DNA of 64,000 nucleotides. Origin: a virus. The stretch lies in IMG/VR virus record IMGVR_UViG_3300046323_000673, positions 19,861-83,860 of that record, one strand, 5' to 3'. Below, piece after piece: positions 12,448 through 33,442 of the stretch. The number at the start of each line of letters is the position of its first letter. Within the stretch, counting starts at the first letter, position 1. The notes under the pieces were generated by a model that ran no database searches, was not told the DNA's origin, and worked only from the letters and a program-made list of their open reading frames with translations. The position numbers and the translations under genes are program-made.

Positions 12448-13002
12448 TCACCGCGAGCGTGGACGACGTCGCAACATGCGAGGGACGCGAATCGCTGAAC
12501 GAAGAATCGACGCGAGTTCTTCACGGTCGAGTTTGCGTGCGTGTGCGAGTTCTTCTTCCAATCGAAAACAACGCTGAATCAACTCGTTGTATTCGGCGTT
12601 CAATGCATCGAACGAACCGAATTGTTTCAATTGTGATTCGAGCACGCGAACACGAGCATTCAGGTTTGCGCATTCGGTCGTCTTGGCATCGAGATCTGTT
12701 TGCTTGAACATCGTCTGCTCAACTGCCCATTGAAGGCACGCCGCTTCGTTCTCGGCAGTCTTGCGATCGAATGTGACTTCCGCAAGCTTGGCGTGGATCT
12801 GTTTCGCGCATGCCCATGTACACACGTCAAATGATGACTTATTGAATCCATTTCTTACGAATTCGGATCGATATCCTGCACTGAAATGACGCCATTCGTC
12901 TTCGTCTGGGTTTGGTGGGTATGCATTGCGTCGCTTGTTTGGATTCGCTTCCTGTTTCCCGCACGCATCACAGATCATTACTGTGGTTGTTTCGCTGCTC
13001 AT
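12448..13002 (-). CDS. antisense hypothetical protein, CxxC zinc-binding plus coiled coil
   Basis: CDACG...CTWAC; GAGGA RBS; CATGAT upstream. Confidence 0.7.
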   Translation of the reverse strand: MSSETTTVMICDACGKQEANPNKRRNAYPPNPDEDEWRHFSAGYRSEFVRNGFNKSSFDVCTWACAKQIHAKLAEVTFDRKTAENEAACLQWAVEQTMFKQTDLDAKTTECANLNARVRVLESQLKQFGSFDALNAEYNELIQRCFRLEEELAHARKLDREELASILRSAIRVPRMLRRRPRSR

Positions 13003-13050
13003 TGATTGATCCTCGCTCTCGTTCCCATCATGCGATGATTGCGCCTGCCC

Positions 13051-13611
13051 ATGAAACCTCGAGCCCTACCCGCTGGTACCGCGGCACGAACAGTGCTCGC
13101 ACGCATCGCCCCTGCCATCGACAACGCGCGACAAGTCGCAACCGAGATCGGCGCGCGTCCGTATCAAGTCTTCCTCGTGTGGGGCGCGTGGGGTGGCAAG
13201 GAACGGGGCGAAGGAACGTTCGGGGAACTCGCACGGTTGCAGCTATTGCCAAACCCCAAGATCGACACTGTGCAATTCACGAACACGCCCTACAGCGCGG
13301 GGCAGTTGCCCGTGGGTGCATTGCGCGTGTCGGGTATTTCGTCGACGTATACGCAACCTGTTTTGCAGGGTAATCGACTTCCGAATGGGCATGAGTTCGA
13401 CAAGCAAAACAGGCGTAACGACTTCTTCTACGAGATCACGCTCGATGATCGAACCCCGAGTGAAGACCCCGAACGTGCGCGTATGCGATTGCTCTCTGGA
13501 CCCACGCTCATGCCCACGCGCGTATCGTGGGAGATGCAACTTGAACGCTCGTCTGATGATCGTTCCAATCGGGAAGCACGCATTGATCGCGCGAATGGAA
13601 AGGGCTGCTGA
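13051..13611 (+). CDS. putative head-closure/neck protein
   Basis: Size and synteny between adaptor and gp10-like gene. Confidence 0.55.
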   Translation: MKPRALPAGTAARTVLARIAPAIDNARQVATEIGARPYQVFLVWGAWGGKERGEGTFGELARLQLLPNPKIDTVQFTNTPYSAGQLPVGALRVSGISSTYTQPVLQGNRLPNGHEFDKQNRRNDFFYEITLDDRTPSEDPERARMRLLSGPTLMPTRVSWEMQLERSSDDRSNREARIDRANGKGC

Positions 13612-14117
13612 TGGCTGCTGAAATCACGTTGCAGGAAGCGGCGCAACGAACGGAAGAACTCAAAGAGAAGTGGCACAAGGCGGCTGTGCTTGGCTTGCAA
13701 TCAGCAGCGGCAAGGGGCGTGCAGGACATCGTCACGCGCATCATCCCATCACGCACGCCGCAACCCGTGGACCGGGGAGTCTATCGCTCGGGATGGCGGT
13801 TCTATACAGCTCCCGATGGTGCGGTGATTGATAACGCCGAACCGCACGCCATCTTGATCGAAGACGGCGTGCGTGCGGGTAACGTTAAGATCGGGAAGAA
13901 GATGATCGACGCGCTTGCTGAGTGGGTACAGCGCAAGGGCATTGTTAGTGGGGATGACGCACGTTCGGTTGCATGGGCAATCGCGAAGTCGATGCAGCGC
14001 CGGGGGATATTCAACAAGGGCAAGGGAATGGGGATACTTGCCGAACTGGTCGACAAGTATCTGCCCGGCTATGTCGAAGAAGAAGTTGCGCGGGAAGTCG
14101 AACGGGCGGGGTTCTAG
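13611..14117 (+). CDS. HK97 gp10-like neck/tail component
   Basis: PVDRGVYRSGW, NAEPHAILIEDG, WVQRKG motifs. Confidence 0.7.
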   Translation: MAAEITLQEAAQRTEELKEKWHKAAVLGLQSAAARGVQDIVTRIIPSRTPQPVDRGVYRSGWRFYTAPDGAVIDNAEPHAILIEDGVRAGNVKIGKKMIDALAEWVQRKGIVSGDDARSVAWAIAKSMQRRGIFNKGKGMGILAELVDKYLPGYVEEEVAREVERAGF

Positions 14118-14245
14118 ATCGATTTACGTTGCGCCATTTTCAACGCATTCCGACGTAGTGCATCGAAATCGGCGATTAAGGCGAGTTCCCGAATGCACAG
14201 AAGTATCCGATAGAATTTGAGTTCGTCCTGATTCATGTGGTGATT

Positions 14246-14470
14246 CTAGATCTTCTTGGCGAACCCGTATCGTTTGCCACGCTTTTCACCTTCCGCGTCG
14301 ATTGCACCAAGCGCGGTGAGGTACGCAATCGCGGCGCTCCATTCGGATGACGAGCATGAAACGTGAACAGCGATTTCGCCCTTGGTGAGTTTCTTGTCTT
14401 TCGACTTTTCGAGTGTGTTGACGATCTGTTGAGCGATTCGTTGGGTATTCGATGAGACTTCGGTAGCCAT
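14246..14470 (-). CDS. small winged-HTH DNA-binding protein (antisense)
   Basis: IVNTLE..LTKGEIA..SSSEWSAAIAYL..GAI..EGEKRGKRY; AAGGAG RBS. Confidence 0.7.
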   Translation of the reverse strand: MATEVSSNTQRIAQQIVNTLEKSKDKKLTKGEIAVHVSCSSSEWSAAIAYLTALGAIDAEGEKRGKRYGFAKKI

Positions 14471-14500
14471 GGAATTGAACTCCTTTCGAGTCGGGATAGG

Positions 14501-14704
14501 TCATGCGACGTTTCTCGCGGCCCGTTGCGCGCGTTTCACTTCTTCCCGTCGTGATTGTGCCGCCTTCACTTGTGCGAGGTGCACGGCGCATCGCTTGTTT
14601 GGCTTCAACGCATCACGTTTGCAGTCGATGCATTTACCCATGTTCATTTGCTTCTTCCGCCATGCGTCGCGGTCTTCGTCGAAGATGCTGATTTTATGGA
14701 TCAT
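14501..14704 (-). CDS. small basic Cys/His protein (antisense)
   Basis: GKCIDCK...RCAVH; CATGAT 6 bp before ATG next to palindrome 5. Confidence 0.6.
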   Translation of the reverse strand: MIHKISIFDEDRDAWRKKQMNMGKCIDCKRDALKPNKRCAVHLAQVKAAQSRREEVKRAQRAARNVA

Positions 14705-14720
14705 GCCGTGATCATGCGTG

Positions 14721-14750
14721 AAATCCAATTGGATCGATCCAATTGGATTT
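14721..14750. repeat. 30-bp palindrome copy 5 (exact)
   Basis: Between divergent genes. Confidence 0.97.
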
Positions 14751-14771
14751 TGTGATGCTACCTTCACAACC

Positions 14772-15491
14772 ATGGCCGTTTTCGACGCGCTTAGGAAATA
14801 CCTTGCGGGCGGGCTGTTCTTCGGCCGGGCAAACCCAAGGAACAAGCCCCGACCCCTTCCCTCGCACGATGCACGGTCGTACGCGCTCGCGAAGTTTGGC
14901 GACTTCCTCGCGGCGCTCGAATGGTCCCGTCCTGGTGACGTCGGCAAACCCGATGTTCCATATCGAATCGCACGCGAGGATATTTACGAGGAACAACCCG
15001 ACGATCCCGCGCAATTGAACTTCCCAAGCATCGCGTTCCTTCCCGCGCGGGGCATGCACGATCAATACAACCTTGGTCCAAGCGACATTATCGACGAAAG
15101 CCGAGACCAGTTTGGGAAGGGCACCGTGCTGCTCTTGCAAGGGGAGTACATCGAACCGTTCATGATCGAGGTGTGGGGAAGTCACATCGCTGAACGCCGG
15201 TCGATTCTTGCCGGCATACAAGCGGTGATGCGAATGAACGAGCGTTCGAATGCGTTGCAGCTCCTGCTTCCCGAATACTTTGGTCGGGTCGCAAGCTTCA
15301 GTTTGATGGATTCGCAGAACATCGACGATCCCGACGTTGTTCGTGGACGCCGGCGGGGGCAAGTCGCGGTCGAACTGCGCGTACCCGAAGTTGTGCTTGT
15401 CGACGTCGTAACGATGCGTCCCTGCCTATGTGTTGAGGTCGTGGACAAGCTGCGTTCCGAACAATGCGGACAAGATGCCGACTCGACGTAG
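14772..15491 (+). CDS. putative tail completion/terminator protein
   Basis: Immediately before sheath; FPSIAF motif; TACCTT 7 bp before ATG. Confidence 0.6.
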   Translation: MAVFDALRKYLAGGLFFGRANPRNKPRPLPSHDARSYALAKFGDFLAALEWSRPGDVGKPDVPYRIAREDIYEEQPDDPAQLNFPSIAFLPARGMHDQYNLGPSDIIDESRDQFGKGTVLLLQGEYIEPFMIEVWGSHIAERRSILAGIQAVMRMNERSNALQLLLPEYFGRVASFSLMDSQNIDDPDVVRGRRRGQVAVELRVPEVVLVDVVTMRPCLCVEVVDKLRSEQCGQDADST

Positions 15492-15518
15492 AGCGAAACA
15501 ACGGCGTAACGTACTTGC

Positions 15519-17738
15519 ATGGGTGCAGGCTTTTTACGCAGATTCATCGGGCGCCAACCTACAGTCGACGAGCTTCTCGCGATTGAAGGCGTTGTGCTCA
15601 TTGACAAGGATCCACCGGCGGCGATCAACGGGGCAAACACGGGTGTTGCCCTTGTCGTAGGTGAGTTCGAGGATGGTCCGTTCAATACGCCGCTAGAGAT
15701 CCTTTCATCGAATGATCTCGCGACGACGTTCGGGCAATTCGGTTTCAACTATGACGGTTTGGCGGGGGGTAACCCTTGTGCTCGATCACGACTCGCGGAC
15801 GGGGCGACATCCCCCGAGTATTGGAACGGCAACGGGTTCATCGGGCTTGTGAACAAGAGGTTCGCGGGGCTCGTTCTCGTTCGCGTTGATACGAGCGTGG
15901 GTGAAGTTTCGTTCACAAGACTTGCGAGTCTATCCGGACGAACTGATTTCTCGTTCGCGCTTTCCGATGGTGCATCGCTCGATTTCGATATCGGCGCGGG
16001 TACAGTATCGGCGGTGTTTAACGGCGCGGTTGCGACGATTGCAAGCGCGGCGGGCACGTACCCAAGCACGTTCACCGGCGGGCAAACCCTGACCGTCGCA
16101 ATCGAGGGAACGACCTACGTGATCACGTTCCTCGCGGCGGACCAAACCCAAGCGCAGTGCATCGCGCGAATGAACGCGGCGGTTGGGTACACGGCATTCG
16201 TTTCGTTCAGCGCAACCGTGATCGATTTCAATGGTCGCATTGAAGGCACCGATGGCGAGATCCAAGTGCTCGCGGTGAGCGGCGCACTCGTCACGACTGC
16301 AACCGGGTTTTCCGCGGGCGCTGCTGTAAACGGAACGGGCAACGTCCCGAACCTTGCAGCCATTTCAAGCACAGATGCCGACGCGGTAGTGAATGCGGCG
16401 GATGCAGACACCAACATCGACCGCGACGCGAACAACGCGATTCGCATCGTGAATACGGGTACGCCTGGCACAGGCACGATCATCGTCGATAGTACGAGCA
16501 CGGCACTCGCGTTTGGCTTCCCGCTCGACACGGAAGCAGATGCCGCAGTGGGCATTGATGGGAGCATTCCCGCGGGCACACGTATTCGAACAGGTGCGGG
16601 CGTTGAATTCGTCACAATGACGACGACGGCAATCACCGCGGCAAACGCCGGCCCCTACACGATTCGCGTACGACACGCGCTCGACAATGGTGCAGGTGCA
16701 TCACAACTCGTTTCGACGCTGAACGTTGTGCCTTTCCCGATTGCGATCGGGGCATTCGCAGTGACGAACAATCTGCCTATCGGTGCGGCGAAAACGGAAG
16801 CACAACTTGACGCGCTGTACACGACCGCGATTCAAGGAACGAAGTCGATCAAGGGCATCACGAAGAAAGTGAACATCATCGTGAGTGCGCGACAATCGAA
16901 CACGATTCGTTCGGCGCTGAAGGTGAATCAGCTTGAGGCGTCCACGGAAGGCTGCTTCGGGCGTATCGCATGCATTCGTCCCCCACTTGGAATCACTCGA
17001 GCAACCGCGCGCAGCACGTCGGCACAACCCGGCGTCGGGGCGTATAGGAACCGGGGTGTGGTGTACTGTTACCCCGGCGTTCAAACCTACGTCCCGCAGA
17101 TTGCAGCACGTGGCATCGCGGGCGGTGCGGGGTTCACCGCGGACGGGATCATCAACACGGGATTCGATACGTGGATGACCTCGATCCTTTCTCAACTCCC
17201 GCCGGAAGAAGATGCGGGGCAAGAAACCGGGTATTTGGCAGGCGTGCTTGATATCGAACGCAATGCCGATGTCGCTGATTTGAAGATCGAGGATTACATC
17301 GCGTTCAAGGCGTCGGGTATTGCCGCACCTCGCATCGATGACGGCGTATGTATCGTGCAAAGTGCGGATACAAGTGTTGACCCGGCGGTTGACCCCGTGG
17401 GCGTTCCCATTGCCCGACAACGATTCGTGTATTACCTGCAAGACACGCTTGGTCCGCGTCTCAATACGTACGTGAAGAAGGGCAGCACGAACGAACGACG
17501 GGCGTTGGTCGTGGGCGAAGTCGACGGGTTCTTGTCGGGTTTGCTTAGCGAGGGACAACCGTCACTCGCGCGCATTCTTGGTTATGAAATCGACACAATT
17601 AGCGGCAACACGCCTGCACTTCTCGAACGAGGGATCTTTCGTATCATCGAACGTGTGAAGATGATCGCGCCGTTCCGAGCTATTGTGCTCGAATCAATAG
17701 TGGGTGAAACGGTTCAGATCGCCGAAACAGCGGCGTAA
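15519..17738 (+). CDS. contractile tail sheath protein
   Basis: 739 aa; GVVLID...VALVVGEFEDGPFNTP N-terminus; sheath-like C-terminus (NTPALLERGIF). Confidence 0.85.
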   Translation: MGAGFLRRFIGRQPTVDELLAIEGVVLIDKDPPAAINGANTGVALVVGEFEDGPFNTPLEILSSNDLATTFGQFGFNYDGLAGGNPCARSRLADGATSPEYWNGNGFIGLVNKRFAGLVLVRVDTSVGEVSFTRLASLSGRTDFSFALSDGASLDFDIGAGTVSAVFNGAVATIASAAGTYPSTFTGGQTLTVAIEGTTYVITFLAADQTQAQCIARMNAAVGYTAFVSFSATVIDFNGRIEGTDGEIQVLAVSGALVTTATGFSAGAAVNGTGNVPNLAAISSTDADAVVNAADADTNIDRDANNAIRIVNTGTPGTGTIIVDSTSTALAFGFPLDTEADAAVGIDGSIPAGTRIRTGAGVEFVTMTTTAITAANAGPYTIRVRHALDNGAGASQLVSTLNVVPFPIAIGAFAVTNNLPIGAAKTEAQLDALYTTAIQGTKSIKGITKKVNIIVSARQSNTIRSALKVNQLEASTEGCFGRIACIRPPLGITRATARSTSAQPGVGAYRNRGVVYCYPGVQTYVPQIAARGIAGGAGFTADGIINTGFDTWMTSILSQLPPEEDAGQETGYLAGVLDIERNADVADLKIEDYIAFKASGIAAPRIDDGVCIVQSADTSVDPAVDPVGVPIARQRFVYYLQDTLGPRLNTYVKKGSTNERRALVVGEVDGFLSGLLSEGQPSLARILGYEIDTISGNTPALLERGIFRIIERVKMIAPFRAIVLESIVGETVQIAETAA

Positions 17739-17749
17739 GAGGTGACGTC

Positions 17750-18199
17750 ATGGGCGATCGATTAAAGGGCCAAGAGGTATCAATCAGGGTCATCGACTCG
17801 GGGACGATGGTCGCGAGTCTCGATTCGATCACGAGCTTCAATGAGGAAATGAAGTCGGAGATCAAAGAGGACGGCTTTCTCGGGGAAGTCGCGAATCGAT
17901 TCGATGACATCTTCAACGGGTTTGGCGGCGACTTTGAAATTCACGTCCGTCGTTCGGATTATGTGAATTTTCAAAAACGCGTGAAGGAACGACAACAACG
18001 CAAGGTCGTGACGCGCGTGTTCAACGTCGTGCGTACCGACCTCTACCCCGATGGCACGTCGACCGTGTTCACGTACATCGACGTGAAGTGGGGGGCGATG
18101 AGTACGAGCGCGGGAAGTCGCACCGACTTCGTGAAGATGAAAACAAGTTTTGCTTGTTCAGAACGCGCCGACAAGCAAAACGCACTGCCCCTTTCCTGA
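17750..18199 (+). CDS. tail tube protein
   Basis: 149 aa directly after sheath, GAGGTG RBS. Confidence 0.75.
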   Translation: MGDRLKGQEVSIRVIDSGTMVASLDSITSFNEEMKSEIKEDGFLGEVANRFDDIFNGFGGDFEIHVRRSDYVNFQKRVKERQQRKVVTRVFNVVRTDLYPDGTSTVFTYIDVKWGAMSTSAGSRTDFVKMKTSFACSERADKQNALPLS

Positions 18200-18221
18200 C
18201 AAATCCCTACGTTACTCGACG

Positions 18222-18251
18222 AAATCCAATTGGATCGATCCAATTGGATTT
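18222..18251. repeat. 30-bp palindrome copy 6 (exact)
   Basis: Intergenic; CGTCGAGTAACGTAGGGAT flank lies on the minus strand. Confidence 0.97.
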
Positions 18252-18330
18252 CGTTCGTTCACGCACACGAGCACGCATCCCTTGACGTCTTGCCCTATTG
18301 GCGTTCTGATGTGATTTGGAGGTCGTGACG

Positions 18331-18981
18331 ATGGCTGATAAGAACGACGCTGATTGGTTTGATGGCGACGGCAAAGCGGGGCAGGAAGAGGGTACGCAAG
18401 AGCAAGGTGCCGAACTTGAAGTCGAGGACGATGACGAGTCGCAAGGGGCGGTGATGGATGAAGTTCCCATCGAAGAACTGCAATCCCCCGCGGCCGATCT
18501 CAAAACGGAAGAGCCAAAAAAGATCACAACGCGACAAATGGTCCCCAAGTCGGACGGTGTTCGTCGCGCGCCGGTATGGGCAAAGATCCCAAAGGGAATG
18601 AAGTTTCCCAAGGGTATCGACGTTTTGATTCTTCGCATTCGCGCCGAATTGACGATGTATCCCGGCAAGGGTGAACGTCAGGTCATTATCTGGCAGGTAA
18701 CGGACGGCGATCAAAAGCTCGCGATATCCCGCGCAATGGGCGATTCAAACCGCCTTGGAATCGAAATGACGAAACAGATGATTCGCGCGGCCGATGGTCA
18801 GCAAATCAATTGGACGGGTGATCCATCCGCGCCGGGAATTGATATCGATCGGTTTTGGCACGAAATCGGACAGAAGGGTCGGTCGATTCTTCATCGCATC
18901 ACAAACCAATTGTGCGTGATGAGCGAGGAAGAACATGCTGATTTTTTCGAGCATTGCATCGCTGCCGTTCGGACGGGCTAA
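18331..18981 (+). CDS. tail assembly chaperone (G-like)
   Basis: Between tube and tape measure; GGAGGT RBS; slippery T TTT TTC at 18942-18948. Confidence 0.65.
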   Translation: MADKNDADWFDGDGKAGQEEGTQEQGAELEVEDDDESQGAVMDEVPIEELQSPAADLKTEEPKKITTRQMVPKSDGVRRAPVWAKIPKGMKFPKGIDVLILRIRAELTMYPGKGERQVIIWQVTDGDQKLAISRAMGDSNRLGIEMTKQMIRAADGQQINWTGDPSAPGIDIDRFWHEIGQKGRSILHRITNQLCVMSEEEHADFFEHCIAAVRTG

Positions 18982-19289
18982 GGTTTGACAAGGAAGGCTT
19001 CACGCTTGATCCTGATGAGCGATTGAACCTTCTGAAACGGCTCATTCGATATGCGGGCGATGCTGAAATGTACGCGTTCGTGATTGCTTACTGCACGTCG
19101 ATCAACCCAATCGATATGCATAAGAATCGAATCTGGCAACACGTATACCTTGCCAGGTATATGCGCCTTTCCCCGAGCGAGATTGAGCGCATGCCCCTCT
19201 CGCTTATCCGTCAATACATCGCTACCCTGTCCGAGTTCATCAAAAAGGAAGCAGGTCCCGCGCAGCAAGCCGAGACCGACTTCGTGTGA
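18942..19289 (+). CDS. tail chaperone -1 frameshift extension (GT-like)
   Basis: The -1 frame is open from the slippery site to 19289; LSPSEIERMPL motif typical of the T part. Confidence 0.6.
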   Translation, partial: FFRALHRCRSDGLRFDKEGFTLDPDERLNLLKRLIRYAGDAEMYAFVIAYCTSINPIDMHKNRIWQHVYLARYMRLSPSEIERMPLSLIRQYIATLSEFIKKEAGPAQQAETDFV

Positions 19290-19304
19290 TGCGAGGGTAG
19301 TTTC

Positions 19305-24735: not shown

Positions 24736-24744
24736 GCTGCACCC

Positions 24745-24774: not shown

Positions 24775-24793
24775 TGCCGTGTAACATAGGGAC

Positions 24794-26509: not shown

Positions 26510-26535
26510 TTTACTGTGATGATTGTCGTTTGTCC

Positions 26536-26730: not shown

Positions 26731-26788
26731 GGTTTGTCTCTTTCCTGTAATGGGTGGGTAGTATGCATGAATTTTTCATGCAGCACCC

Positions 26789-26818
26789 AAATCCAATCGG
26801 ATCGATCCAATTGGATTT
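26789..26818. repeat. 30-bp palindrome copy 10 (1 mismatch)
   Basis: AAATCCAATCGG... variant; between divergent genes. Confidence 0.95.
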
Positions 26819-26838
26819 CACCGTGATACAGGTAGGGC

Positions 26839-27870
26839 ATGCCCCCCCGACGACGACCACGCGCACGCCCGATGAACCTTCCCGATCTCGCAAACGCGAT
26901 GAAGGGACCGGGCAACGACACGCGGCAATGGGTATCGTTTGGCCTGGTTGACGAGGTGCCCGTCGACTTCGATGTTGACCACGGCCCGCTCATATCAGTC
27001 ATCTTGAAACCATCCGAAGTCGAGGTGGTTTGCCGAGTTGCGATGCAGGTAGGAGGCAATGGGGAGGGCGAGTATTACCCGTTCGTCGAAGGCGATGAAG
27101 TCATCGTGCTTGTCCCCGGCGGCAACGAACGAGGCGGATGCGTCATCGTCGGACGATTGCCCAACCAACGCACGCCATTCCCCCAAGGAAGCGTCGCGGG
27201 ACAAGACCCATCGACGAATGCATTCGGGTTCCGCCGGACGAAAGCACCGTTCATCAGTGAAGCGGACGGGCCAATCCTTCAGCGACAAGCCAAGAGCGGC
27301 GCGTTCATTTCACTTGATGAAGCCGGTACGGCGACGATTGCGAATGGCGACAAGAGCGCGATGCAATTGTCGTCAGACGCGCTCACAATTCAATCGGGTG
27401 ACGGCAACTCGATTGTGCAGCTCGACATCACGGGTGGACGCGCAACCGTGCAAAGTGGTTCGGCGGTGCTCACCCTCGCAAGTGCGACGGCTGTACCCGC
27501 GACAAGCTCGATCGTGACACCCAACGTGCTGCAATTCTCGACGGCAGGGGCTCCCCCGGCGGAACACGTCATCACGACAGAAGCGGTCGTGAATCTTGTA
27601 TCGGGCATCTTGAACACGTTGGGTGTTGCATTGACCGCACTTGGCGCAACGCCGTTGACGGGTGCGGTACTTGGCGCGTTACTCGAAGATCCAGCGTTCT
27701 CGATTGCGTTAGCAGCGGCGATCCCAGTGATTGCACAACGGCAACAGAACAGCCTTGTTGCGCTCGCATTGGTTGCCGCGTTTAGCAATCCAACGGCGAA
27801 ACCCCCGCCGGTGCCAGGTCAGGGACAGACGTCACCGGGAATAGGCTGTACGGGGCTCTTGGCGGGGTAG
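26839..27870 (+). CDS. baseplate spike / assembly protein V
   Basis: GNGEGEYYPFVEGDEVIVLVPGG...VIVGRL OB-fold motif followed by beta-helix-like repeats. Confidence 0.8.
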   Translation: MPPRRRPRARPMNLPDLANAMKGPGNDTRQWVSFGLVDEVPVDFDVDHGPLISVILKPSEVEVVCRVAMQVGGNGEGEYYPFVEGDEVIVLVPGGNERGGCVIVGRLPNQRTPFPQGSVAGQDPSTNAFGFRRTKAPFISEADGPILQRQAKSGAFISLDEAGTATIANGDKSAMQLSSDALTIQSGDGNSIVQLDITGGRATVQSGSAVLTLASATAVPATSSIVTPNVLQFSTAGAPPAEHVITTEAVVNLVSGILNTLGVALTALGATPLTGAVLGALLEDPAFSIALAAAIPVIAQRQQNSLVALALVAAFSNPTAKPPPVPGQGQTSPGIGCTGLLAG

Positions 27871-28061
27871 GAACGAACGACTTTCCACGTGGGATCATTC
27901 GTCGCTTTGCGAAGCCAATTGCGTACGTAAATCGCGACCGATTTCTTGCGATAAACCTGCCCGTCTTTGCGATGCTTGCTCCATTGATAACCACGCGCTG
28001 TTTCTAACGTGTATTGTCCTTTTCCGTTTTTAATGCGGAACTTGGGCTTCTTATCCTTCAT
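27819..28061 (-). CDS. small basic antisense protein
   Basis: MKDKKPKFRIKN..., AT-richer insert between baseplate genes. Confidence 0.5.
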   Translation of the reverse strand: MKDKKPKFRIKNGKGQYTLETARGYQWSKHRKDGQVYRKKSVAIYVRNWLRKATNDPTWKVVRSYPAKSPVQPIPGDVCP

Positions 28062-28098
28062 AACGTCATATTTGATCGCGCTGCTCATATCTGCGATC

Positions 28099-28416
28099 AT
28101 GGCACGCATGGGTCGTTCACCTTCACCCGATGCAGCACCCCCCGTTGAACAAGCAGCAGCAGCCGCAAACGCATCGTTTCTGCCATCACCGACAGGGCTT
28201 GAACTGTGCGGGTTCGCCTTGCCTGCAATCCCGGCGTTCCCTGGATTGCCCGCACTTCCGAGTCTCGACACGTTGTTTGCTTTCCCGCCCGCGTTCAGCT
28301 TCCCGATTCCGATGGTGTGCGGGTTGGCGGATAGTTTGGCGGGGAGCGTTGGGTATGGCGGGGGACGTACGCCGTCGCGGGTGGAAGCGATTGATCACGA
28401 ATTCGATGGGGCGTGA
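28099..28416 (+). CDS. Pro-rich hypothetical protein
   Basis: ORF in baseplate cluster. Confidence 0.5.
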   Translation: MARMGRSPSPDAAPPVEQAAAAANASFLPSPTGLELCGFALPAIPAFPGLPALPSLDTLFAFPPAFSFPIPMVCGLADSLAGSVGYGGGRTPSRVEAIDHEFDGA

Positions 28417-28417
28417 T

Positions 28418-28672
28418 TCACAAGTCGATGCAATCGGCGACGCTAAAGCTACGTTCCGATTTCAATTGAGCTTTCAATCGTTCGACTTCTGCTTTCAAGG
28501 CATCACGTTCCATTGCCAATTCTACGATAACGCCTGGATACACGTAGCCTTGGTATCCGTTAGGAATCAATTCAGGATGCACACAATCGGTCCGATAAGT
28601 CTTCAAAACATCAGCATCGATCGTCATTTGCATAGGAACACCAAGTAAAGTTCCTGCCCATACAATTTTCAT
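28418..28672 (-). CDS. antisense hypothetical protein with C-terminal coiled coil
   Basis: GAGGTG RBS; ERDALKAEVERLK. Confidence 0.6.
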   Translation of the reverse strand: MKIVWAGTLLGVPMQMTIDADVLKTYRTDCVHPELIPNGYQGYVYPGVIVELAMERDALKAEVERLKAQLKSERSFSVADCIDL

Positions 28673-28705
28673 GAAATCACCTCTTGTTCGCTTCATGCCA
28701 CGACG

Positions 28706-28735
28706 AAATCCAATTGGATCGATCCAATTGGATTT
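28706..28735. repeat. 30-bp palindrome copy 11 (exact)
   Basis: Between divergent genes. Confidence 0.97.
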
Positions 28736-28792
28736 CACCGACAAAACCGATGATCCTTGACCCAACGCCCCAACTTGCACGACCCTGTACCC

Positions 28793-29596
28793 ATGCCGCT
28801 CGTGCAGATCAAGATCGACCAAGCAGGTAAACCAGCGGGCCTTCCCGGCGTCGCACGTGAAGATCTCGACGTCAGCGTCGATGTCGTCTTGAGCGCGGTT
28901 GGCGGACCCTTCAGGCAGTGGCGATGGTCGGTCATCGATCAAGCACTCGAGTTCGAAACCGACTCGCTTGGAACAGCCGCGATCGTTTCACCGTCTTCGA
29001 GCACGACCGTGCTGTCTCCCATCGATGCGTCGGGGACTTACTTGGTGCAGCTTGAGATCGATAGCGGCTCGGGACTCGGGGCGACGGCTGATGACATCGT
29101 GCGCATCACATTTTACGCGGGCGTACCGCTTGCGATCGAACCAGACGAACTTCCGCAACGCATCCCCGCGGCGCGTGAATACACGGAGCACAACGTCCCG
29201 AATGCGGCCTACCCGCTCGGGAACGTAATCGGTTGGGCCTACACGATCGGCAAGTGGCTTAATGGGGTCGCGCGACGGCTTTATCGAGTTGCGCCCCGTG
29301 CGGGCATTCGCATAACAACCGCAAGTGCAGGGCCTACCGTTTCGGTTGTGCGTCAGTTCTACATGTTGATCCCCACGTTCAACGGCACGACGTACACGTG
29401 CACGATTGATCCGCCATTCCCCAACGCGTTTTATGGGGTATCGATTACGCCACACGAAAGTGTGGATTATGGGCACCCTAAAACGTGGGCGGTGAACGTG
29501 GTAAGTTCGTCCGTGTTCGAGGTCGTGTTTTACGACAACGCGGATGCACCAACGGGCGCGGACTTCACTGCGTTCGTCGGCCTTGGGGATAGCTGA
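28793..29596 (+). CDS. putative tail/baseplate-associated protein
   Basis: Ig/PKD-like N-terminus (GTYLVQLEID), beta-rich C-terminus. Confidence 0.55.
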   Translation: MPLVQIKIDQAGKPAGLPGVAREDLDVSVDVVLSAVGGPFRQWRWSVIDQALEFETDSLGTAAIVSPSSSTTVLSPIDASGTYLVQLEIDSGSGLGATADDIVRITFYAGVPLAIEPDELPQRIPAAREYTEHNVPNAAYPLGNVIGWAYTIGKWLNGVARRLYRVAPRAGIRITTASAGPTVSVVRQFYMLIPTFNGTTYTCTIDPPFPNAFYGVSITPHESVDYGHPKTWAVNVVSSSVFEVVFYDNADAPTGADFTAFVGLGDS

Positions 29597-30465
29597 TGCT
29601 GGGCCTTGGTTGGGGCTCTAGCGGGTGGGGGGCTAGTGGTTGGGGTGCGCCTACCCTTGCCGATGCACTCACGATTCTATCGGCGGTTGCGGTCCGGGAA
29701 AACTGCGTGCGTCTCACGTTCAATTTGATCCTCGCGTACACCGACGTGCGAGGACTTGTCGACGCGGCCGATCCTGATAACTACGTGTTCGAACCTGTGG
29801 AAGGCACGATCGGCGAAGATGGTTTGCCCCCCCGGCCTGTGTTTCCCGTGCTTGTCGAACAAGTCAAACGACCCGACGTGAATGGTAAATCGATCGACGT
29901 GTGGCTTGATCGACGATTGTCACCATATCCCGCGCAATATCGTGTTCGTTGCGTGCGTTCAGTTGCCGCAAATGGCGCTGCACTTTCAAGCATGATTGCC
30001 GTGTTTCACGGCGTAACGTGGGCACCTCCCACGCCGGAAAACGCAACCACGCCCGCAACCGACATCGCGAATCCCGGATATGAATCAGCATCGATCCCGG
30101 GTTCAACGCAGATCTTGGGCGTGTATCCAACGACGTCCCAAGGCGACTACGCGACGGATCAAGGACTCGTTTCGTACAAGAAACGCATCTTTCGCCGGCT
30201 CACGACAAGGCGTGGACGATTCGCGCATTTGCCAAATTACGGCGTAGGGTTGCTTGACCAGATCAAACGCCTCGCCAAACCTTCGATCAAACAGACGATC
30301 GCGGCGCAAGCAGAGGCGCAAATACGCGAGGAACCTGAAACACTCGACGTGCGCGTGACAATCACGAGCGACGCAAACACACCGGGACTCTTCCGATTCC
30401 GCGTGCAGGCGCGAACAAGTGTGTTCGGTACGGTAAACCTCGACATTCCCGTATCAACTGCGTGA
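29596..30465 (+). CDS. baseplate wedge protein with gp25/gpW-like C-terminal domain
   Basis: RRLTTRRG..HLPNYGVGL...EEPE motif. Confidence 0.75.
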   Translation: MLGLGWGSSGWGASGWGAPTLADALTILSAVAVRENCVRLTFNLILAYTDVRGLVDAADPDNYVFEPVEGTIGEDGLPPRPVFPVLVEQVKRPDVNGKSIDVWLDRRLSPYPAQYRVRCVRSVAANGAALSSMIAVFHGVTWAPPTPENATTPATDIANPGYESASIPGSTQILGVYPTTSQGDYATDQGLVSYKKRIFRRLTTRRGRFAHLPNYGVGLLDQIKRLAKPSIKQTIAAQAEAQIREEPETLDVRVTITSDANTPGLFRFRVQARTSVFGTVNLDIPVSTA

Positions 30466-30475
30466 TTATTGCCGG

Positions 30476-31582
30476 GTGGATACCCCTACCCGCTTCGACC
30501 TCTACCAGATTGGCCGTGAGTATCTGCTCACGTACGCGACAAACATTCAGCGCAACGTGGTTGACACTGAAGGGTCGGATGCGAACCTGTTCGTCGGGGC
30601 AACAAGCTTCATGGCGGGCGCGGTATCAACGCAACTTGCCGCTCGATTAGCTGCGCATTTTGCTCGTTCCGCAATTGGTGAAGACCTTGATCGATTGCTT
30701 GTCGATCGGTGGACCCTACCGCGTAAAGGTGCAGCACCCGCAATCGGTTCCGTTCGTTTTTACCGAACATCAGCAGCAGCCGGTGCGGGTACGGTTCTGG
30801 TTGGAACGAAGGTCGGAACGGATGACGGTATCGAGTACGTCACAACAACGCCTGCGCTCTTCAGCACAGGAACGCTTTCGGTTTCCGCTGACGTGCGTGC
30901 AACACGCGCGGGCGATACGCAGCAAGTCGGACGATACCGGCTCGTTCGTATTTATCAACCGGGTGTGATCTTTGACCCGTCGATTCAAGTCATCAACGAC
31001 GAATCCACCGCGGGCGGGGAACCTCGAGAAGATGACGACGACTATCGATTGCGAGGGCAGAACGCACCTGCTTCGCTTGCACGCGGAACGTTACAAGCCA
31101 TTCGTGAGGGTGCGGTATCAACGCCGGGTGTAGCGACTGCAATGGCAACGGAAGCCATCGACGGGGATCTTCGTCCCGCACGCGTTGTGCTTTTATCCAT
31201 CGCGGATGGTTCGGGGTTGGCAAATCGCGCATTAGGAAACGAGGCATTGCGCACCGTTGATGATTATCGCGCGGCGGGAATTGCCGTGATTGCCACGTTA
31301 TCCACGCCGTTTCTGATTGGCGTGCGATTGAAACTCGCGTTCATCGCGGGCGTGTCGACGACGATCCTGAGTGATACCGTTCGGCGTGCGGTGATCGCAT
31401 ACGTGAACAGTTTACCCACGGGCGGCGCGCTCTATCGCTCGAACTTGAACAGCTTGCTTGCGCGGTACCAGGCAAACGGGCTGATACCGAATCAAAGCAG
31501 CATCGTCGAACCAACGGGCGATATCTTCCCGCCGGCGGGGCGAACGATTCGCACGACAAGCGATCTCGTCACGTTGGAGTGA
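30476..31582 (+). CDS. baseplate J-like protein
   Basis: AIGEDLDRL...LPRKGA, GGEPREDDDDYRLR, RGTLQAI. Confidence 0.85.
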   Translation: MDTPTRFDLYQIGREYLLTYATNIQRNVVDTEGSDANLFVGATSFMAGAVSTQLAARLAAHFARSAIGEDLDRLLVDRWTLPRKGAAPAIGSVRFYRTSAAAGAGTVLVGTKVGTDDGIEYVTTTPALFSTGTLSVSADVRATRAGDTQQVGRYRLVRIYQPGVIFDPSIQVINDESTAGGEPREDDDDYRLRGQNAPASLARGTLQAIREGAVSTPGVATAMATEAIDGDLRPARVVLLSIADGSGLANRALGNEALRTVDDYRAAGIAVIATLSTPFLIGVRLKLAFIAGVSTTILSDTVRRAVIAYVNSLPTGGALYRSNLNSLLARYQANGLIPNQSSIVEPTGDIFPPAGRTIRTTSDLVTLE

Positions 31583-31593
31583 TCAAAAGGACA

Positions 31594-31623
31594 AAATCCA
31601 ATTGGATCGATCCAATTGGATTT
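31594..31623. repeat. 30-bp palindrome copy 12 (exact; extends to 36 bp, 31591-31626)
   Basis: Intergenic after baseplate J. Confidence 0.97.
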
Positions 31624-31867
31624 TGTGGGCGCGGCGACGGGACTCAAACCCGCGACTCCGACAACCTTGGGTAAAAGATAACGAAAACTCCAAAGTCGTC
31701 GGCGTACGTCACCTTGATCTGCACCGCGCATACGCATCATGACTCGTCGTCGAAGTACTCGCACGACATATCGTTCGGCGCCGCGTGAGTCATACGTTGT
31801 CGTCGGCGCCGAACGACGTGTCACTTGGGTACCAGGGCGACGCATGCTTTGCGCTAACATCGCCAAC

Positions 31868-33442
31868 ATGGCCGAACTGAAGACAGGACCCATCACCCGC
31901 GCAGAGCTCGAACAGATTTGGAAGAGCGTCACGGACCCCGAGTATTCCCGCGCGTTCATCGACCGGGGTGAAGGACAAGGGTTCGAAGCGCACACGCAAG
32001 CGATGCAGCAGCTCGCGCGCGTATCGACGGGCATTGACCGAACAACGCAAGGGCTCTACGTCAAATCTTGGTCGGGACAAACGTTCGAGCCTGCATCAGG
32101 CGCGCAGTTCTCGACTGTGGATATCACCATCACCCGATCGAAGGAATTCGTTTGGTCGGTTGTGCTTCCCGTCGGAACACGCATTCAAGAGGTAGCGATC
32201 GATTTCGGTCGACTCGGGGGGGAAGAAGTTATCACCGGCCGGGAATACCTCTTCCCGCAAAACACGGGATTCGTCTCAGGGCAACCCGGACCCATCACCA
32301 TTACCGCGATTGCAGATAGGCAAGGTGAAGGTTTCGACAATCCCCTGCCCGGAACGTTGAACCGCATTGCACAGGTCGGTGTTGGGCTCTCCAATTCAGG
32401 CGCGAGCATCGTGCTTGGAACGAGCATTCATTCGATGATTCTCGCAATCGAACCCGACGTGATTACGAATGACCAGATCGGGCAATACGTGCAGTTCATC
32501 GCAGGTGCGAACCAAGGGCAGATCCGCCGCGTCGTGGGTATTATTCCGCCCGATCCGATAACGCCGATCGATGGCGGAACCGCACTGCTTGAAGCAACGC
32601 AAATCTTTCGATTCGCATCAGTGGCCGGAACGTTCATCCCCGGCGAGATACTTTCGCAACCCGCAACGCCCGCGACAAGCATCGTCGTTTTGCAGGGACC
32701 GACCCATTTGATCGCGCAACGGCAAAGCGGGGATATCGTCGCGGGAACGCTTGTGTATGGCGTGCAAAGCGGCGCGGTTGCAGTCTTCGATTCTGTCGAT
32801 CAATCGGGTGACTTGATCGCCGAAACGAACACCGCAACATGGCGGATCATGAGCTGGGGTGAATTCGGGATTGCTGTTACGAACGAGGAACACCCCAACG
32901 GCGGACGTGCAGCCGTGCTTGACGAAATTGGATATGAGCGGATGACGTATCGCGGCACGGGCGAAAGCGACGATGGGTTTCGTAAACGCGTTGCGAACTT
33001 TGCGGACCTCGTGAGTCCCAAGGCGATCACGCGCATTGCGAATCGAATCCTTGTTCCGTACGGATACGAGGCGCATTTGTGCGAGGTGGGGAAGCCGAAC
33101 TTTCGAGGGTTCTTCTACGACGGCGATCCCGTGCAGCAAAACCCAGCAATCGCGTTTGCATACGATCTCGACTTCGCATTGCAACCCGCGCAAAAGCTCA
33201 TGCTCGAACTCGATTACACAGAATTCCGCGCGTTCTTTTTGTTGGGTGTGCCGCGACTTGCGCTTGGTGAATTCGGGTTTGCGTACGATGATGGGATGGT
33301 GAACTTCTACGATGCAGCGCCATACCTATCGTTTTTCGATGGGTTTCCGGCAACTGCATCGACGATTTACCGAACGTTATGGCACGCGGTAAACGGGGCA
33401 AAAGCGGGCGGGGTAGGGTTTGACTTGTCGGTGGATTGCTAA
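31868..33442 (+). CDS. second baseplate wedge protein (J/I-related)
   Basis: LDEIGYER..RGTGESDDGFRKRV motif; C-terminal KAGGV. Confidence 0.65.
   Translation: MAELKTGPITRAELEQIWKSVTDPEYSRAFIDRGEGQGFEAHTQAMQQLARVSTGIDRTTQGLYVKSWSGQTFEPASGAQFSTVDITITRSKEFVWSVVLPVGTRIQEVAIDFGRLGGEEVITGREYLFPQNTGFVSGQPGPITITAIADRQGEGFDNPLPGTLNRIAQVGVGLSNSGASIVLGTSIHSMILAIEPDVITNDQIGQYVQFIAGANQGQIRRVVGIIPPDPITPIDGGTALLEATQIFRFASVAGTFIPGEILSQPATPATSIVVLQGPTHLIAQRQSGDIVAGTLVYGVQSGAVAVFDSVDQSGDLIAETNTATWRIMSWGEFGIAVTNEEHPNGGRAAVLDEIGYERMTYRGTGESDDGFRKRVANFADLVSPKAITRIANRILVPYGYEAHLCEVGKPNFRGFFYDGDPVQQNPAIAFAYDLDFALQPAQKLMLELDYTEFRAFFLLGVPRLALGEFGFAYDDGMVNFYDAAPYLSFFDGFPATASTIYRTLWHAVNGAKAGGVGFDLSVDC

What the first reader, a model, noticed from the sequence alone, without database searches (positions are those of the whole stretch)
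12448..33442. Virion operon systematically interleaved with small antisense genes headed by the palindrome
Seen: minus-strand ORFs interrupt the + strand structural cluster at 12448-13002, 14246-14704 (2 genes), 21281-22085 (3), 22901-23209, 24478-24735, 26536-26730, 27819-28061 and 28418-28672. Six of these blocks begin directly at a palindrome (copies 5, 7, 8, 9, 10, 11), and several look AT-richer than the flanks. Established: tail and baseplate genes are normally one contiguous co-oriented operon, and morons are sporadic. Inference: these are acquired cassettes of the form [antisense ORF + palindrome], where the palindrome also restarts the downstream structural gene and makes insertion harmless. 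This could be an undescribed gene-capture route or a built-in antisense silencing of late genes.
Basis: partly seen in the sequence, partly recalled or inferred. Interest (0 to 1): 0.78.

Follow-up and report, generated by a model that had tools for sequence, protein, structure and literature searches.

The report
Antisense accessory genes beside phage palindromes
In an uncultivated phage, small foreign-looking genes sit backwards between the tail genes, each starting next to a repeated 30-letter palindrome that marks gene junctions all over the genome, and close relatives carry different genes in the same slots; this is a new variant of a known way for phages to pick up genes.

Summary
Eleven minus-strand ORFs in eight blocks interrupt a + strand myovirus head-tail-baseplate module. 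Six blocks start 9-58 nt from a copy of a perfect 30-bp palindrome. All four ORFs testable against close relatives are under purifying selection (dN/dS 0.12-0.31). All eleven are AT-richer than their neighbours, and none occurs in any distant relative. Close relatives (84-96% nt) lack, replace or swap the cargo at three slots.

The cassette reading is only partly right. The palindrome is not the cargo's private header: the genome has 23 copies, and about 16 have no antisense gene. Related phages, almost wholly one-stranded, carry 9-24 copies of their own different palindromes at the same kinds of junction. At one slot the cargo changed while the palindrome stayed. At another, a relative has cargo but no palindrome.

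My best reading: the palindrome is a resident, probably protein-bound junction signal, set inside very short divergent promoter regions. The spacer upstream of it is a safe harbour for self-promoted antisense ORFans. The closest known are PeSL cassettes of T4-type phages and classical morons.

No RNA data exist, so expression, promoter function and antisense silencing remain untested.

Call: new variant of a known kind; moderate interest.

The parts
12407..12436 (.). Palindrome copy between convergent genes g11987 (+, ends 12394) and ORF 12448-13002 (-). The flanks extend it to a 38-nt perfect palindrome.
   Evidence: RNA hairpin -27 kcal/mol, z -5.8.
12448..13002 (-). Accessory gene, 184 aa, with a CxxC motif near the N-terminus. 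It starts 36 nt from the divergent + gene at 13039, without a palindrome at its start. Its upstream region has GCATGAT and an AGGA Shine-Dalgarno.
   Evidence: dN/dS 0.21 against L030. 9 homologs at 43-78% identity, all metagenomic. No hit in distant relatives. GC 0.506.
14246..14470 (-). Accessory gene, 74 aa, likely a stand-alone winged-helix DNA-binding protein.
   Evidence: It matches the C-terminal ~70 positions of the PADLOC DrmD (E 2.2e-8) and DrmMI profiles. The nearest Atlas clusters are all winged-helix families, score 0.93 (a lead only). It is found only in this genome, in 0 of 5 relatives.
14501..14704 (-). Accessory gene, 67 aa. Its ATG lies 16 nt from the palindrome and is preceded by CATGAT plus 6 nt.
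   Evidence: dN/dS 0.12 against L024. Motif.
14721..14750 (.). Palindrome copy at the divergent junction. The + gene starts at ATG 14772, 21 nt to the right.
18222..18251 (.). Palindrome copy between the co-oriented tube gene and g18316, with no cargo. The CGAGTAACGTAGGGA box points left, at nothing.
   Evidence: (I2). The close relatives L034 and L036 are colinear here.
21281..21837 (-). Two accessory genes (21281-21484, 67 aa; 21481-21837, 118 aa). The stop of the first overlaps the tape-measure gene's stop (CTAA).
   Evidence: Window 21284-21870 is absent from the close relatives L028 and L035. GC 0.475 and 0.501.
21873..22085 (-). Accessory gene, 70 aa. Its ATG lies 16 nt from the palindrome, after CATGAT plus 7 nt.
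   Evidence: dN/dS 0.31 against L028 and L035. Motif.
22102..22131 (.). Palindrome copy. The + gene g22206 starts 74 nt to the right.
22901..23209 (-). Accessory gene, 102 aa. Its stop overlaps the g22206 stop (CTAG). Its ATG follows CATGAT plus 6 nt.
   Evidence: dN/dS 0.27 against L035. In L028 it is replaced by an unrelated 62-aa minus ORF.
23230..23259 (.). Degenerate palindrome copy (3 of 30 positions differ). The hub gene starts 19 nt to the right.
   Evidence: It is precisely absent in the close relative L028.
24478..24735 (-). Accessory gene, 85 aa (81 aa if it starts at ATG 24723). Its stop overlaps the hub gene's stop (CTAG).
   Evidence: Its coding score is the best of the set, 0.18 bits/aa. 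The slot holds a 155-aa ORF in L037 and a 160-aa ORF with a Recombinase domain in L033.
24745..24774 (.). Palindrome copy (1 mismatch). Its right flank, TGCCGTGTAACATAGGGA, is the same as that of genome copy 1. g24794 starts 19 nt to the right.
   Evidence: No relative has a motif at this junction (0 of 7). The junction is at most 33 nt long in 16 of 17 related loci.
26536..26730 (-). Weakest candidate gene: 64 aa, GTG start 58 nt from the palindrome. A 13-aa mini-ORF lies between them, and its stop overlaps the GTG.
   Evidence: GC 0.369, score -0.03 bits/aa. Untested in relatives.
26789..26818 (.). Palindrome copy (1 mismatch). g26839 starts 20 nt to the right.
27819..28088 (-). Accessory gene, 89 aa, second in the leftward pair. 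Its ATG follows CATGAT plus 7 nt, far from any palindrome.
28418..28696 (-). Accessory gene, 92 aa (84 aa if it starts at ATG 28672, which has an AAGAGG Shine-Dalgarno).
   Evidence: GC 0.44.
28706..28735 (.). Palindrome copy. g28757 starts 21 nt to the right.
31594..31623 (.). Palindrome copy between the co-oriented baseplate J and fibre genes, with no cargo.
13039..33442 (+). Conserved tail and baseplate genes that the cargo interrupts: tail completion 13611-14117, sheath 15519-17738, tube 17750-18199, tape measure 19305-21284 (name inferred from size and position; no family hit), hub 23279-24481, gp25-like 29596-30465, baseplate J 30476-31582, fibre 31739-33442 (name inferred from position; no family hit).
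   Evidence: PHROG and Pfam hits. Order conserved in 21 related loci.

Best explanation
The minus-strand ORFs are real, recently acquired accessory genes (ORFan morons). Each is wedged into the short spacer between the stop codon of one tail or baseplate gene and the palindromic junction element that heads the next gene.

The palindrome is a resident element. It is genome-wide in this phage, and related phages have counterparts with other sequences. It is most likely the binding site of a phage-encoded two-fold-symmetric DNA-binding protein. It lies inside very compact promoter regions:
- To the right, a CGNGTAAC(A/G)TAG box (-10-like TAACAT) and a purine-rich Shine-Dalgarno lead to the + gene 19-25 nt away.
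- To the left, a CATGA(T/A) box sits 3-8 nt from the palindrome. It is followed after 6-7 nt by the ATG (a leaderless-type start), or further on by a Shine-Dalgarno and then the ATG.

Each palindrome-headed gene can then be expressed on its own, so DNA inserted just upstream of the palindrome does no harm. These slots turn over quickly among close relatives by recombination in the conserved flanks.

Shown: the ORFs are real genes; they are foreign and lineage-specific; the slots vary; the palindrome is independent of the cargo; the spacing is fixed.

Inferred: protein binding, promoter function, leaderless starts, and why the cargo is antisense.
For: 1. Real genes. dN/dS is 0.21, 0.12, 0.31 and 0.27 for the 4 of 4 minus ORFs that have a close relative. 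Each is the best frame of six in its gap. ORF 12448-13002 has 9 homologs.
2. Acquired. GC is 0.37-0.54 against 0.569. 0 of 11 hit the 21 related loci. 0 of 19 hit four complete relatives. Those relatives are almost one-stranded by my gene caller: 96/96, 78/78, 85/88 and 90/98 genes on one strand, against 74/85 here.
3. Slots vary among 84-96% nt relatives. L028 and L035 lack 21284-21870. L028 has another ORF at g22206|hub. L037 and L033 have two other ORFs at hub|g24794. All replacement cargo at these three slots is also antisense.
4. The palindrome is resident. There are 23 copies. G001 has 24 copies of TGGAACTCGAGTTCCA, and its 14-nt core occurs 0 times in four other relatives. G002 has 18 and G005 has 9 copies of their own palindromes. 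In 7 relatives, 30 of 30 motif copies lie between homologs of window genes, many at the same junctions as here.
5. Two-fold symmetry reaches the centre in every clear case: central CG in 7 different palindromes and one near-palindrome. An RNA loop does not need that.
6. Fixed spacing and boxes. CGWGTAACRTAG occurs 7 times against 0.56 expected, always beside a palindrome. CATGAW-N6-7-ATG occurs 12 times against 2.94 expected, with 0 of 100 shuffles reaching 12. Six of these start minus ORFs of 67 aa or more. The L033 and L028 cargo starts have the same box.
7. Only 58-70 nt separate the divergent start codons at hub|g24794. Any promoter there must overlap the palindrome.
Against: - No expression data of any kind exist.
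- The sigma-70 consensus scan found nothing at any palindrome: 6 sites in 20 kb against 10.2 expected. The proposed -10 boxes are weak (CATGAA lacks the final T), and no -35 exists.
- The relatives' palindromes show no conserved flanking box, so the promoter model may not extend to the family.
- No binding protein was identified. A conserved 180-aa candidate gave no fold match. The ParB-like gene is not conserved. The winged-helix cargo gene is lineage-specific.
- The palindromes sit 2-25 nt after stop codons and fold into stable hairpins (-17 to -27 kcal/mol). That equally fits an RNA-level role.
- Five copies carry the box pointing at no gene.
- Gene calls come from my own crude caller.
Confidence: 0.6

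Rival explanations
1. Antisense ORF and palindrome travel together as one mobile unit. It inserts between late genes and brings the restart signal with it.
For: The junctions hub|g24794 and g24794|g26839 are at most 33 nt in 16 of 17 related loci and at most 23 nt in 13 of 14. None of 7 relatives has a motif at hub|g24794. So palindrome and cargo are both lineage-specific there. The palindrome-plus-box unit is repeated over 56-64 nt in both orientations (I1, I2, D2). Copy 14 shares its right flank with genome copy 1, which suggests the unit is copied around.
Against: About 16 of 23 copies have no antisense ORF. Cargo was swapped at hub|g24794 with the palindrome and flanks unchanged. L028 has cargo without a palindrome at g22206|hub. 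The indel 21284-21870 is bounded by stop codons, not palindromes. No slot has a palindrome on both sides of the cargo. The cargo ORFs are not paralogs of one another.
Confidence: 0.2
2. The palindrome acts as RNA. It could be a bidirectional terminator or attenuator, a processing site, or a stabilising hairpin at operon junctions. The cargo would simply accumulate on the upstream side of these hairpins.
For: The hairpins are stable (-17 to -27 kcal/mol, z -3.8 to -6.9 on the + strand). The copies lie 2-25 nt after stop codons here and 2-11 nt after them in many copies of G001 and G002. The core is flanked by AAA and TTT. In 10 of 23 copies the flanks extend the pairing with different sequences (ACG/CGT, ACA/TGT, GTG/CAC, ATG/CAT). 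PeSL stem-loops are proven terminators (PMC2839356, section 13 read).
Against: Only 1 of the 9 copies in the 20-kb scan met the terminator pattern, and the scan total was not above chance (29 against 25.4). The U-tract is 3-4 nt, and the relatives' palindromes have none. Sequence is invariant at all 30 positions in 19 of 23 copies, with no compensatory changes. Self-complementarity through the would-be loop and the nested 12-mer structure are not needed for a hairpin.
Confidence: 0.25
3. Built-in antisense control. Leftward transcripts from the palindromes exist to silence or time the upstream late genes, and the ORFs are secondary.
For: At three slots the cargo stop overlaps the + gene's stop by 4 nt (CTAA, CTAG, CTAG), with no room for a terminator. 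Leftward transcripts would therefore run into the late genes.
Against: The ORFs are under purifying selection as proteins. Relatives manage without any antisense units. Cargo content differs between close relatives, which a conserved regulatory RNA would not allow.
Confidence: 0.1
4. The minus ORFs are chance open frames in oversized intergenic spacers.
For: Their coding scores are low (about -0.2 to 0.18 bits/aa). 10 of 11 have no family match in Pfam, PHROGs, NCBIfam or PADLOC beyond a coiled-coil-type hit.
Against: dN/dS is 0.12-0.31 in 4 of 4 tested. One has homologs down to 43% identity. One has a recognisable DNA-binding domain. Start-associated motifs are present.
Confidence: 0.03

Closest known systems
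PeSL (promoter-early stem-loop) mobile regulatory cassettes of T4-type phages (Arbiol et al. 2010, PMC2839356: abstract and section 13 read; Comeau et al. 2014, PMC4122927: abstract read)
   Same: Both are repeated intergenic units laid out as stop codon, stem-loop, -10 box, Shine-Dalgarno and start codon. Both sit immediately upstream of ORFans in regions that differ by insertion, deletion and replacement between close relatives. Both have a few copies inside virion modules.
   Different: PeSLs carry consensus sigma-70 promoters and G/C-run stem-loops of varying sequence. Here the element is one invariant 30-bp perfect nested palindrome with no sigma-70 consensus. The cargo is antisense inside the late operon, whereas PeSL cargo is co-oriented in early hyperplastic regions. 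The indels here are bounded by a palindrome on one side only. Mini-circles could not be looked for.
Morons of lambdoid phages (Juhala et al. 2000, Hendrix; recalled, not read here)
   Same: Single genes lie between two genes that are adjacent in relatives. Their base composition differs from the flanks. They apparently have their own start signals.
   Different: Morons are sporadic and usually carry a terminator. Here at least 7 independent units in 16 kb are all antisense. Three have a stop overlapping the neighbour's stop, and six start at the same repeated element.
17-bp dyad repeat of Cluster O mycobacteriophages (Cresawn et al. 2015, PMC4351075: passages read)
   Same: More than 30 invariant copies of a dyad-symmetric motif are spread through a phage genome, many between ORFs or near 5' ends of genes. 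Their function is unknown.
   Different: The Cluster O motif is 7+3+7 with a variable centre, and 10 of 34 copies lie inside genes. No link to antisense cargo or to slot turnover was described in the passages I read.
Stoperators of Cluster A and start-associated sequences of Cluster K mycobacteriophages (recalled; seen only in search listings)
   Same: These are genome-wide, phage-specific short motifs in intergenic positions that co-vary with the phage lineage. The start-associated sequences have fixed spacing to start codons.
   Different: Stoperators are asymmetric 13-mers whose orientation follows transcription. Neither motif is a long perfect palindrome, and neither is tied to antisense insertions.

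Membership tests
Moron (independent accessory transcription unit in a late operon) | The gene lies between two genes that are adjacent in related phages. | tested here: met
   hub|g24794 is at most 33 nt in 16 of 17 related loci. g24794|g26839 is at most 23 nt in 13 of 14. 0 of 11 ORFs are present in 21 loci.
Moron (independent accessory transcription unit in a late operon) | Base composition differs from the flanks. | tested here: met
   GC 0.37-0.54 against a mean of 0.569.
Moron (independent accessory transcription unit in a late operon) | It has its own promoter and terminator. | tested here: inconclusive
   A start-associated CATGAW-N6-7-ATG motif is enriched (12 against 2.94), but there is no sigma-70 consensus. 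There is no room for a terminator where the stops overlap.
PeSL-type mobile regulatory cassette | A repeated intergenic unit combines a stem-loop with a promoter, then a Shine-Dalgarno and a start. | tested here: inconclusive
   The stem-loop and the fixed box, Shine-Dalgarno and start are present. Promoter activity is not shown, and the sigma-70 consensus is absent.
PeSL-type mobile regulatory cassette | The units sit at the borders of insertions, deletions and replacements between close relatives. | tested here: inconclusive
   The right border of the replaced segments at hub|g24794 lies within 15 nt of the palindrome. The left borders are at stop codons. The 21284-21870 indel has no palindrome at either border.
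PeSL-type mobile regulatory cassette | Mini-circles form by recombination between units. | not testable with these tools
   Only short assembled contigs were available. The loose ends at palindromes were flanks of other copies.
Intrinsic (bidirectional) terminator | A G+C-rich stem is followed by a U-run. | tested here: not met
   1 of 9 copies in 12000-31999 fits the scan pattern. The total was 29 against 25.4 in shuffles. The U-run is 3-4 nt.
Operator or activator site of a dimeric DNA-binding protein | Exact two-fold symmetry with invariant sequence at many sites, placed at fixed distance from starts. | tested here: met
   19 of 23 copies are perfect over 30 nt. The symmetry runs through the centre in this genome and in 7 relatives' motifs.
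Operator or activator site of a dimeric DNA-binding protein | A cognate binding protein exists. | tested here: inconclusive
   No candidate was established. The small winged-helix-like ORF 14246-14470 is a lead only.

The most novel reading that the evidence does not exclude
A family of uncultivated myovirus-like phages punctuates its genome with about 20 copies of a lineage-specific perfect palindrome that acts as a two-way expression node. The node fires leftward as well as rightward, so the spacer upstream of it becomes a ready-made expression niche. In this lineage the node, with its flanking boxes, has been copied to new tail and baseplate junctions together with antisense ORFans. It would then be a palindrome-based, orientation-reversed counterpart of PeSL cassettes that serves as a gene-capture and gene-nursery system inside the late operon.
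Probability: 0.25. Interest if true: 0.75.

Novelty: new variant of a known kind. Interest (0 to 1): 0.5.

Why it matters
Late operons of tailed phages are usually treated as closed, co-oriented blocks. Here a conserved tail and baseplate module tolerates at least seven antisense insertions, and the same slots hold different genes in phages that are about 90% identical. So gene flux can be concentrated at defined, signal-marked junctions even in the most conserved part of a phage genome.

The lineage-specific palindromes (9-24 copies per genome, a different sequence in each lineage, with a central CG in all) point to a cis-trans regulatory pair that co-evolves across a whole phage family nobody has cultured. 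Both ideas can be tested directly with 5'-end RNA mapping, reporter constructs and DNA pull-downs. The 30-bp element would also be a handy marker for tracking this phage group in metagenomes.

Tried and rejected
**Searches for relatives that found nothing**
- Megablast of 12000-34000 against phages: no match.
- tblastn of the sheath protein against phages: no match.
- Hub protein in viral contigs: no relative.
- Exact palindrome: 0 in viral contigs and 0 in genome contigs.
- Locus search with P0006, the 55% homolog of ORF 12448-13002 that sits on an 84-kb contig: nothing.

**Expression**
- No RNA holder is listed.
- Laying contigs of four DNA runs gave only short unitigs. The loose ends at palindromes were flanks of other palindrome copies, not recombinants. 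The two joints listed had 21-nt sides and were not used.

**Ideas dropped**
- tRNA near 31640: none found.
- T7-like RNA polymerase promoter (the ATAGGGAG resemblance is recalled): Pfam finds no RNA polymerase in the genes scanned.
- ParB/KorB-type global regulator: the ParB-like gene lies outside the window and has no tblastn homolog in four relatives.
- Conserved 180-aa protein (44078-44620) as the binder: model pLDDT 73, no PDB fold match at E of 0.001 or better.
- Paralogy among cargo ORFs: none.
- Cargo family names: Pfam, PHROGs and NCBIfam gave nothing for the small ORFs. The JetC hit of ORF 12448-13002 (E 2e-4) lies in a coiled-coil stretch and was not used.
A PDB sequence search gave 0 hits.
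- The L037 cargo has only 3 homologs.

**Not seen**
- The supplements of the PeSL papers were not opened. They may hold PeSL border details that bear on the comparison.

Full report
**What the window is.** The window is bases 19861-83860 of a single 83,860-bp virus record. Metagenome fragments of close relatives join its two ends (L025, L026), so the record is close to a whole, circularly permuted genome. PHROG and Pfam hits show a myovirus-type module on the + strand:
- portal 3814-5916
- major head protein 9916-11301
- tail completion 13611-14117
- sheath 15519-17738
- tube 17750-18199
- hub-like 23279-24481
- gp25-like 29596-30465
- baseplate J 30476-31582

A replication module follows: helicases, primase, family B polymerase, a RecA-like protein and an SbcD-like protein. 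No deposited phage is similar.

**The palindrome.** AAATCCAATTGGATCGATCCAATTGGATTT is a perfect 30-bp palindrome built of two 12-bp palindromes joined by CG.
- The 26-nt core occurs 18 times in the window, against 0 in 100 shuffles.
- The genome has 23 copies, 19 of them perfect over 30 nt.
- The 12-mer never occurs alone.
- By my own gene calls, 22 of 23 copies lie between genes. One lies in the 5' part of the longest DnaB frame.

**The minus-strand ORFs.**
- In each gap between + genes the minus ORF is the best of six frames by a home-made Markov score. It scores about -0.2 to 0.18 bits/aa, against about 0.22 for structural genes.
- Their GC is 0.37-0.54, against a mean of 0.569 for 19 + genes.
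- Four ORFs could be compared with close relatives. All four show purifying selection in the minus frame: dN/dS 0.21 (12448-13002), 0.12 (14501-14704), 0.31 (21873-22085) and 0.27 (22901-23209). The neighbouring + genes give 0.06-0.23.
- ORF 12448-13002 has 9 homologs at 43-78% identity, all from metagenomes.
- ORF 14246-14470 matches the C-terminal domain of the DrmD and DrmMI profiles (E 2.2e-8). Its nearest Atlas clusters are all winged-helix families.
- The other nine have no family.
- ORF 26536-26730 remains doubtful.

**Link to the palindrome.**
- Seven leftward units in the window start next to a copy: six in the tail and baseplate module, plus the long leftward block that ends at about 38449 beside the copy at 38487.
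- Start codons lie 9-37 nt from the palindrome. For 26536-26730 the distance is 58 nt, with a 13-aa mini-ORF between.
- ORF 12448-13002 is the exception. The palindrome lies between its stop and the stop of g11987. There the flanks extend it to 38 nt.
- On the other side the + gene starts 19-21 nt from the palindrome at five of the six slots.
- The divergent start codons are therefore only about 58-110 nt apart.

**Flanks.**
- Fourteen of 23 copies carry, on one side only and 3 nt from the palindrome, a box CGNGTAAC followed by (A/G)TAG and a purine run. Nine point right and five point left.
- As CGWGTAACRTAG it occurs 7 times in the window against 0.56 expected, always beside a palindrome.
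- The five leftward boxes face no gene.
- The leftward flank of the seven cargo-bearing copies instead reads (G/C)CATGA(T/A).
- The motif CATGAW-N6-7-ATG occurs 12 times in the window, against 2.94 ± 2.1 in shuffles; 0 of 100 shuffles reach 12.
- Six of the nine minus-strand hits are the start codons of minus ORFs of 67 aa or more: 14704, 22085, 23209, 24723, 28088 and 63952. Several + strand hits also start ORFs.
- The replacement cargo in L033 and L028 starts the same way.
- I read CATGAW as a weak -10-like element followed by a leaderless start. That is inference.
- The consensus sigma-70 scan finds nothing at the palindromes.

**Distant relatives.** The sheath protein recovered 21 viral contigs at 42-56% identity. 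These represent about 12 distinct lineages.
- Nearly all + genes are conserved in the same order, but 0 of 11 minus ORFs are found.
- 0 of 19 window minus ORFs hit four complete relatives.
- Junction lengths are tight. hub|g24794 is at most 33 nt in 16 of 17 loci, against 312 nt here. g24794|g26839 is at most 23 nt in 13 of 14, against 329 nt here. tail completion|g14718 is at most 23 nt in most. L016 is the exception each time.
- Three other junctions vary across the whole family: g11987|g13039, tape measure..hub and g26839|g28757.
- By my caller the relatives are almost one-stranded: 96/96, 78/78, 85/88 and 90/98 genes, against 74/85 here.

**The palindrome is a family trait.** Seven of the roughly 12 lineages have their own repeated palindrome:

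| Lineage | Motif |
|---|---|
| L004 / G001 | TGGAACTCGAGTTCCA |
| L013 / G002 | GATTGGAAACCCGGGTTTCCAATC |
| L003 / G005 | ACGGAAACACGTGTTTCCGT |
| L007-11 | ACGGATGATCGATCATCCGT |
| L016 | GTCGGTGATCGATCACCGAC |
| L014/15 | CCGCAATACGTATTGCGG |
| L018-21 | near-palindrome CCGCAACACGTATT... |

- Whole records hold 24 (G001), 18 (G002) and 9 (G005, 79% complete) copies. The 14-nt core of the G001 motif is absent from four other relatives.
- I found no such repeat in L001, L002, L006, L012 or L017.
- All 30 copies in seven loci lie between homologs of window genes, often at junctions that carry a copy here: before the major head gene, after g11987, tail completion|g14718, tube|g18316, before the hub, g24794|g26839 and after g26839. 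None lies at hub|g24794.
- All motifs keep a central CG and, in the seven true palindromes, symmetry through the centre. That fits recognition of double-stranded DNA by a symmetric protein better than a hairpin loop. The lineages are related, so this is not seven independent trials.

**Close relatives.** The exact core finds 17 short metagenome contigs at 84-96% nt identity.
- **Tape measure|g22206.** L028 and L035 lack 21284-21870 (two of the three ORFs) and keep 21873-22085.
- **g22206|hub.** L035 matches the window. L028 has an unrelated 62-aa minus ORF and lacks the palindrome precisely, while both flanks remain.
- **hub|g24794.** L037 has a 155-aa minus ORF. L033 has a 160-aa minus ORF with a Recombinase domain (PF07508, E 1.7e-4, above cutoff). 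The palindrome, the left flank TTCATGCCGCAC and the right box are kept in both.
- **tube|g18316.** This junction has no cargo, and L034 and L036 are colinear with the window.
- **Outside the window.** L027 and L038 carry two extra + strand ORFs between a palindrome and the next gene, and a 486-nt + strand insert upstream of that palindrome.

Slots beside palindromes therefore turn over. In the late module all cargo seen is antisense, and the palindrome and the cargo change independently.

**Reading.** The antisense ORFs are ORFan morons in hyperplastic slots. The palindrome is a resident junction signal, not their header.
- The space between the divergent starts is too short for any promoter that does not overlap the palindrome. 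The symmetry is exact. I therefore favour a protein-bound operator or activator site shared by two short promoters (confidence about 0.45 for this step).
- An RNA-level role remains possible (0.25).
- The cassette idea survives only for the two junctions where the palindrome itself is lineage-specific, and through the observation that palindrome plus box is repeated over 56-64 nt in both orientations.
- The strict antisense orientation is unexplained: at least seven units, about 0.008 by chance if orientation were free. Insulation from late read-through, or use of a two-way node, are guesses.

**Known parallels.**
- PeSL cassettes of T4-type phages have the same anatomy and the same link to ORFans and indels (PMC2839356, abstract and section 13; PMC4122927, abstract). 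They use consensus sigma-70 promoters and variable stem-loops, and their cargo is co-oriented in early regions.
- Cluster O mycobacteriophages have more than 30 invariant 17-bp dyad repeats of unknown function (PMC4351075, passages).
- Morons are recalled, not read here.
- My searches for the combination of antisense cargo and a repeated palindrome in a late operon listed no paper describing it. These were keyword searches of an open-access library only.

I confirmed that count.

Noticed in passing
window 38554-38648 and 39590-39684: Two 95-nt direct repeats (81% alike) each hold a consensus-like promoter (CTTGACA, 17 nt, TATATAT). Each lies about 40-50 nt downstream of a palindrome copy (38487, 39514). 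A similar layout follows a copy upstream of the window. These look like the early promoters, and they show that the host reads sigma-70-type signals.
   Followed up: partly
window 33439-38449 (minus strand): A leftward block of about eight ORFs includes a MazG-like nucleotide pyrophosphohydrolase (PHROG 671, E 2e-20) and an ORF with weak repressor-like hits. The block starts beside the palindrome at 38487, and none of its ORFs is found in four complete relatives.
   Followed up: partly
window 33829-34959 (+): An ORF has weak rve / IS1 DDE transposase hits below the Pfam cut-offs. Its coding score is low and it is absent from relatives. It may be an insertion sequence or its remnant.
   Followed up: no
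window 21281-21284, 22901-22904, 24478-24481; L037: Stop codons of convergent genes overlap by four bases (CTAA, CTAG, CTAG). The unrelated cargo in L037 ends on the same CTAG. The cargo in L033 ends 10 nt away.
   Followed up: partly
window 21268-21297 (+): An 11-bp-stem hairpin spans the tape-measure gene's stop codon and is followed by a T-rich run. It is the only terminator-like site at a cargo border.
   Followed up: no
L021 12844-12981 (-) and 6760-6867 (+); the same in L018-L020 and G004: Weak matches (E 5e-5 to 4e-3) to the N-terminal GQRFGKL...CDCG part of the L037 cargo lie between sheath and tube, and after the major head gene, of distant relatives, on either strand. A small gene family may hop between junctions.
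   Followed up: no
genome bases 4819-6846 (upstream of the window): A 675-aa ParB-like protein has a GxxRxxA-type motif (my reading of the sequence, from recall). It is not conserved in four relatives.
   Followed up: partly
L025, L026: Fragments of close relatives join the end of the window (about 63995) to the start of the genome record, with about 133 nt between. The record is therefore close to a complete circular map.
   Followed up: no
L030 614-706; run X4 at window 12399: Close relatives have an extra 93 nt between the g11987 stop and the palindrome. It begins with a classical-looking hairpin (AAACGGGC...GCCCGTTT).
   Followed up: no
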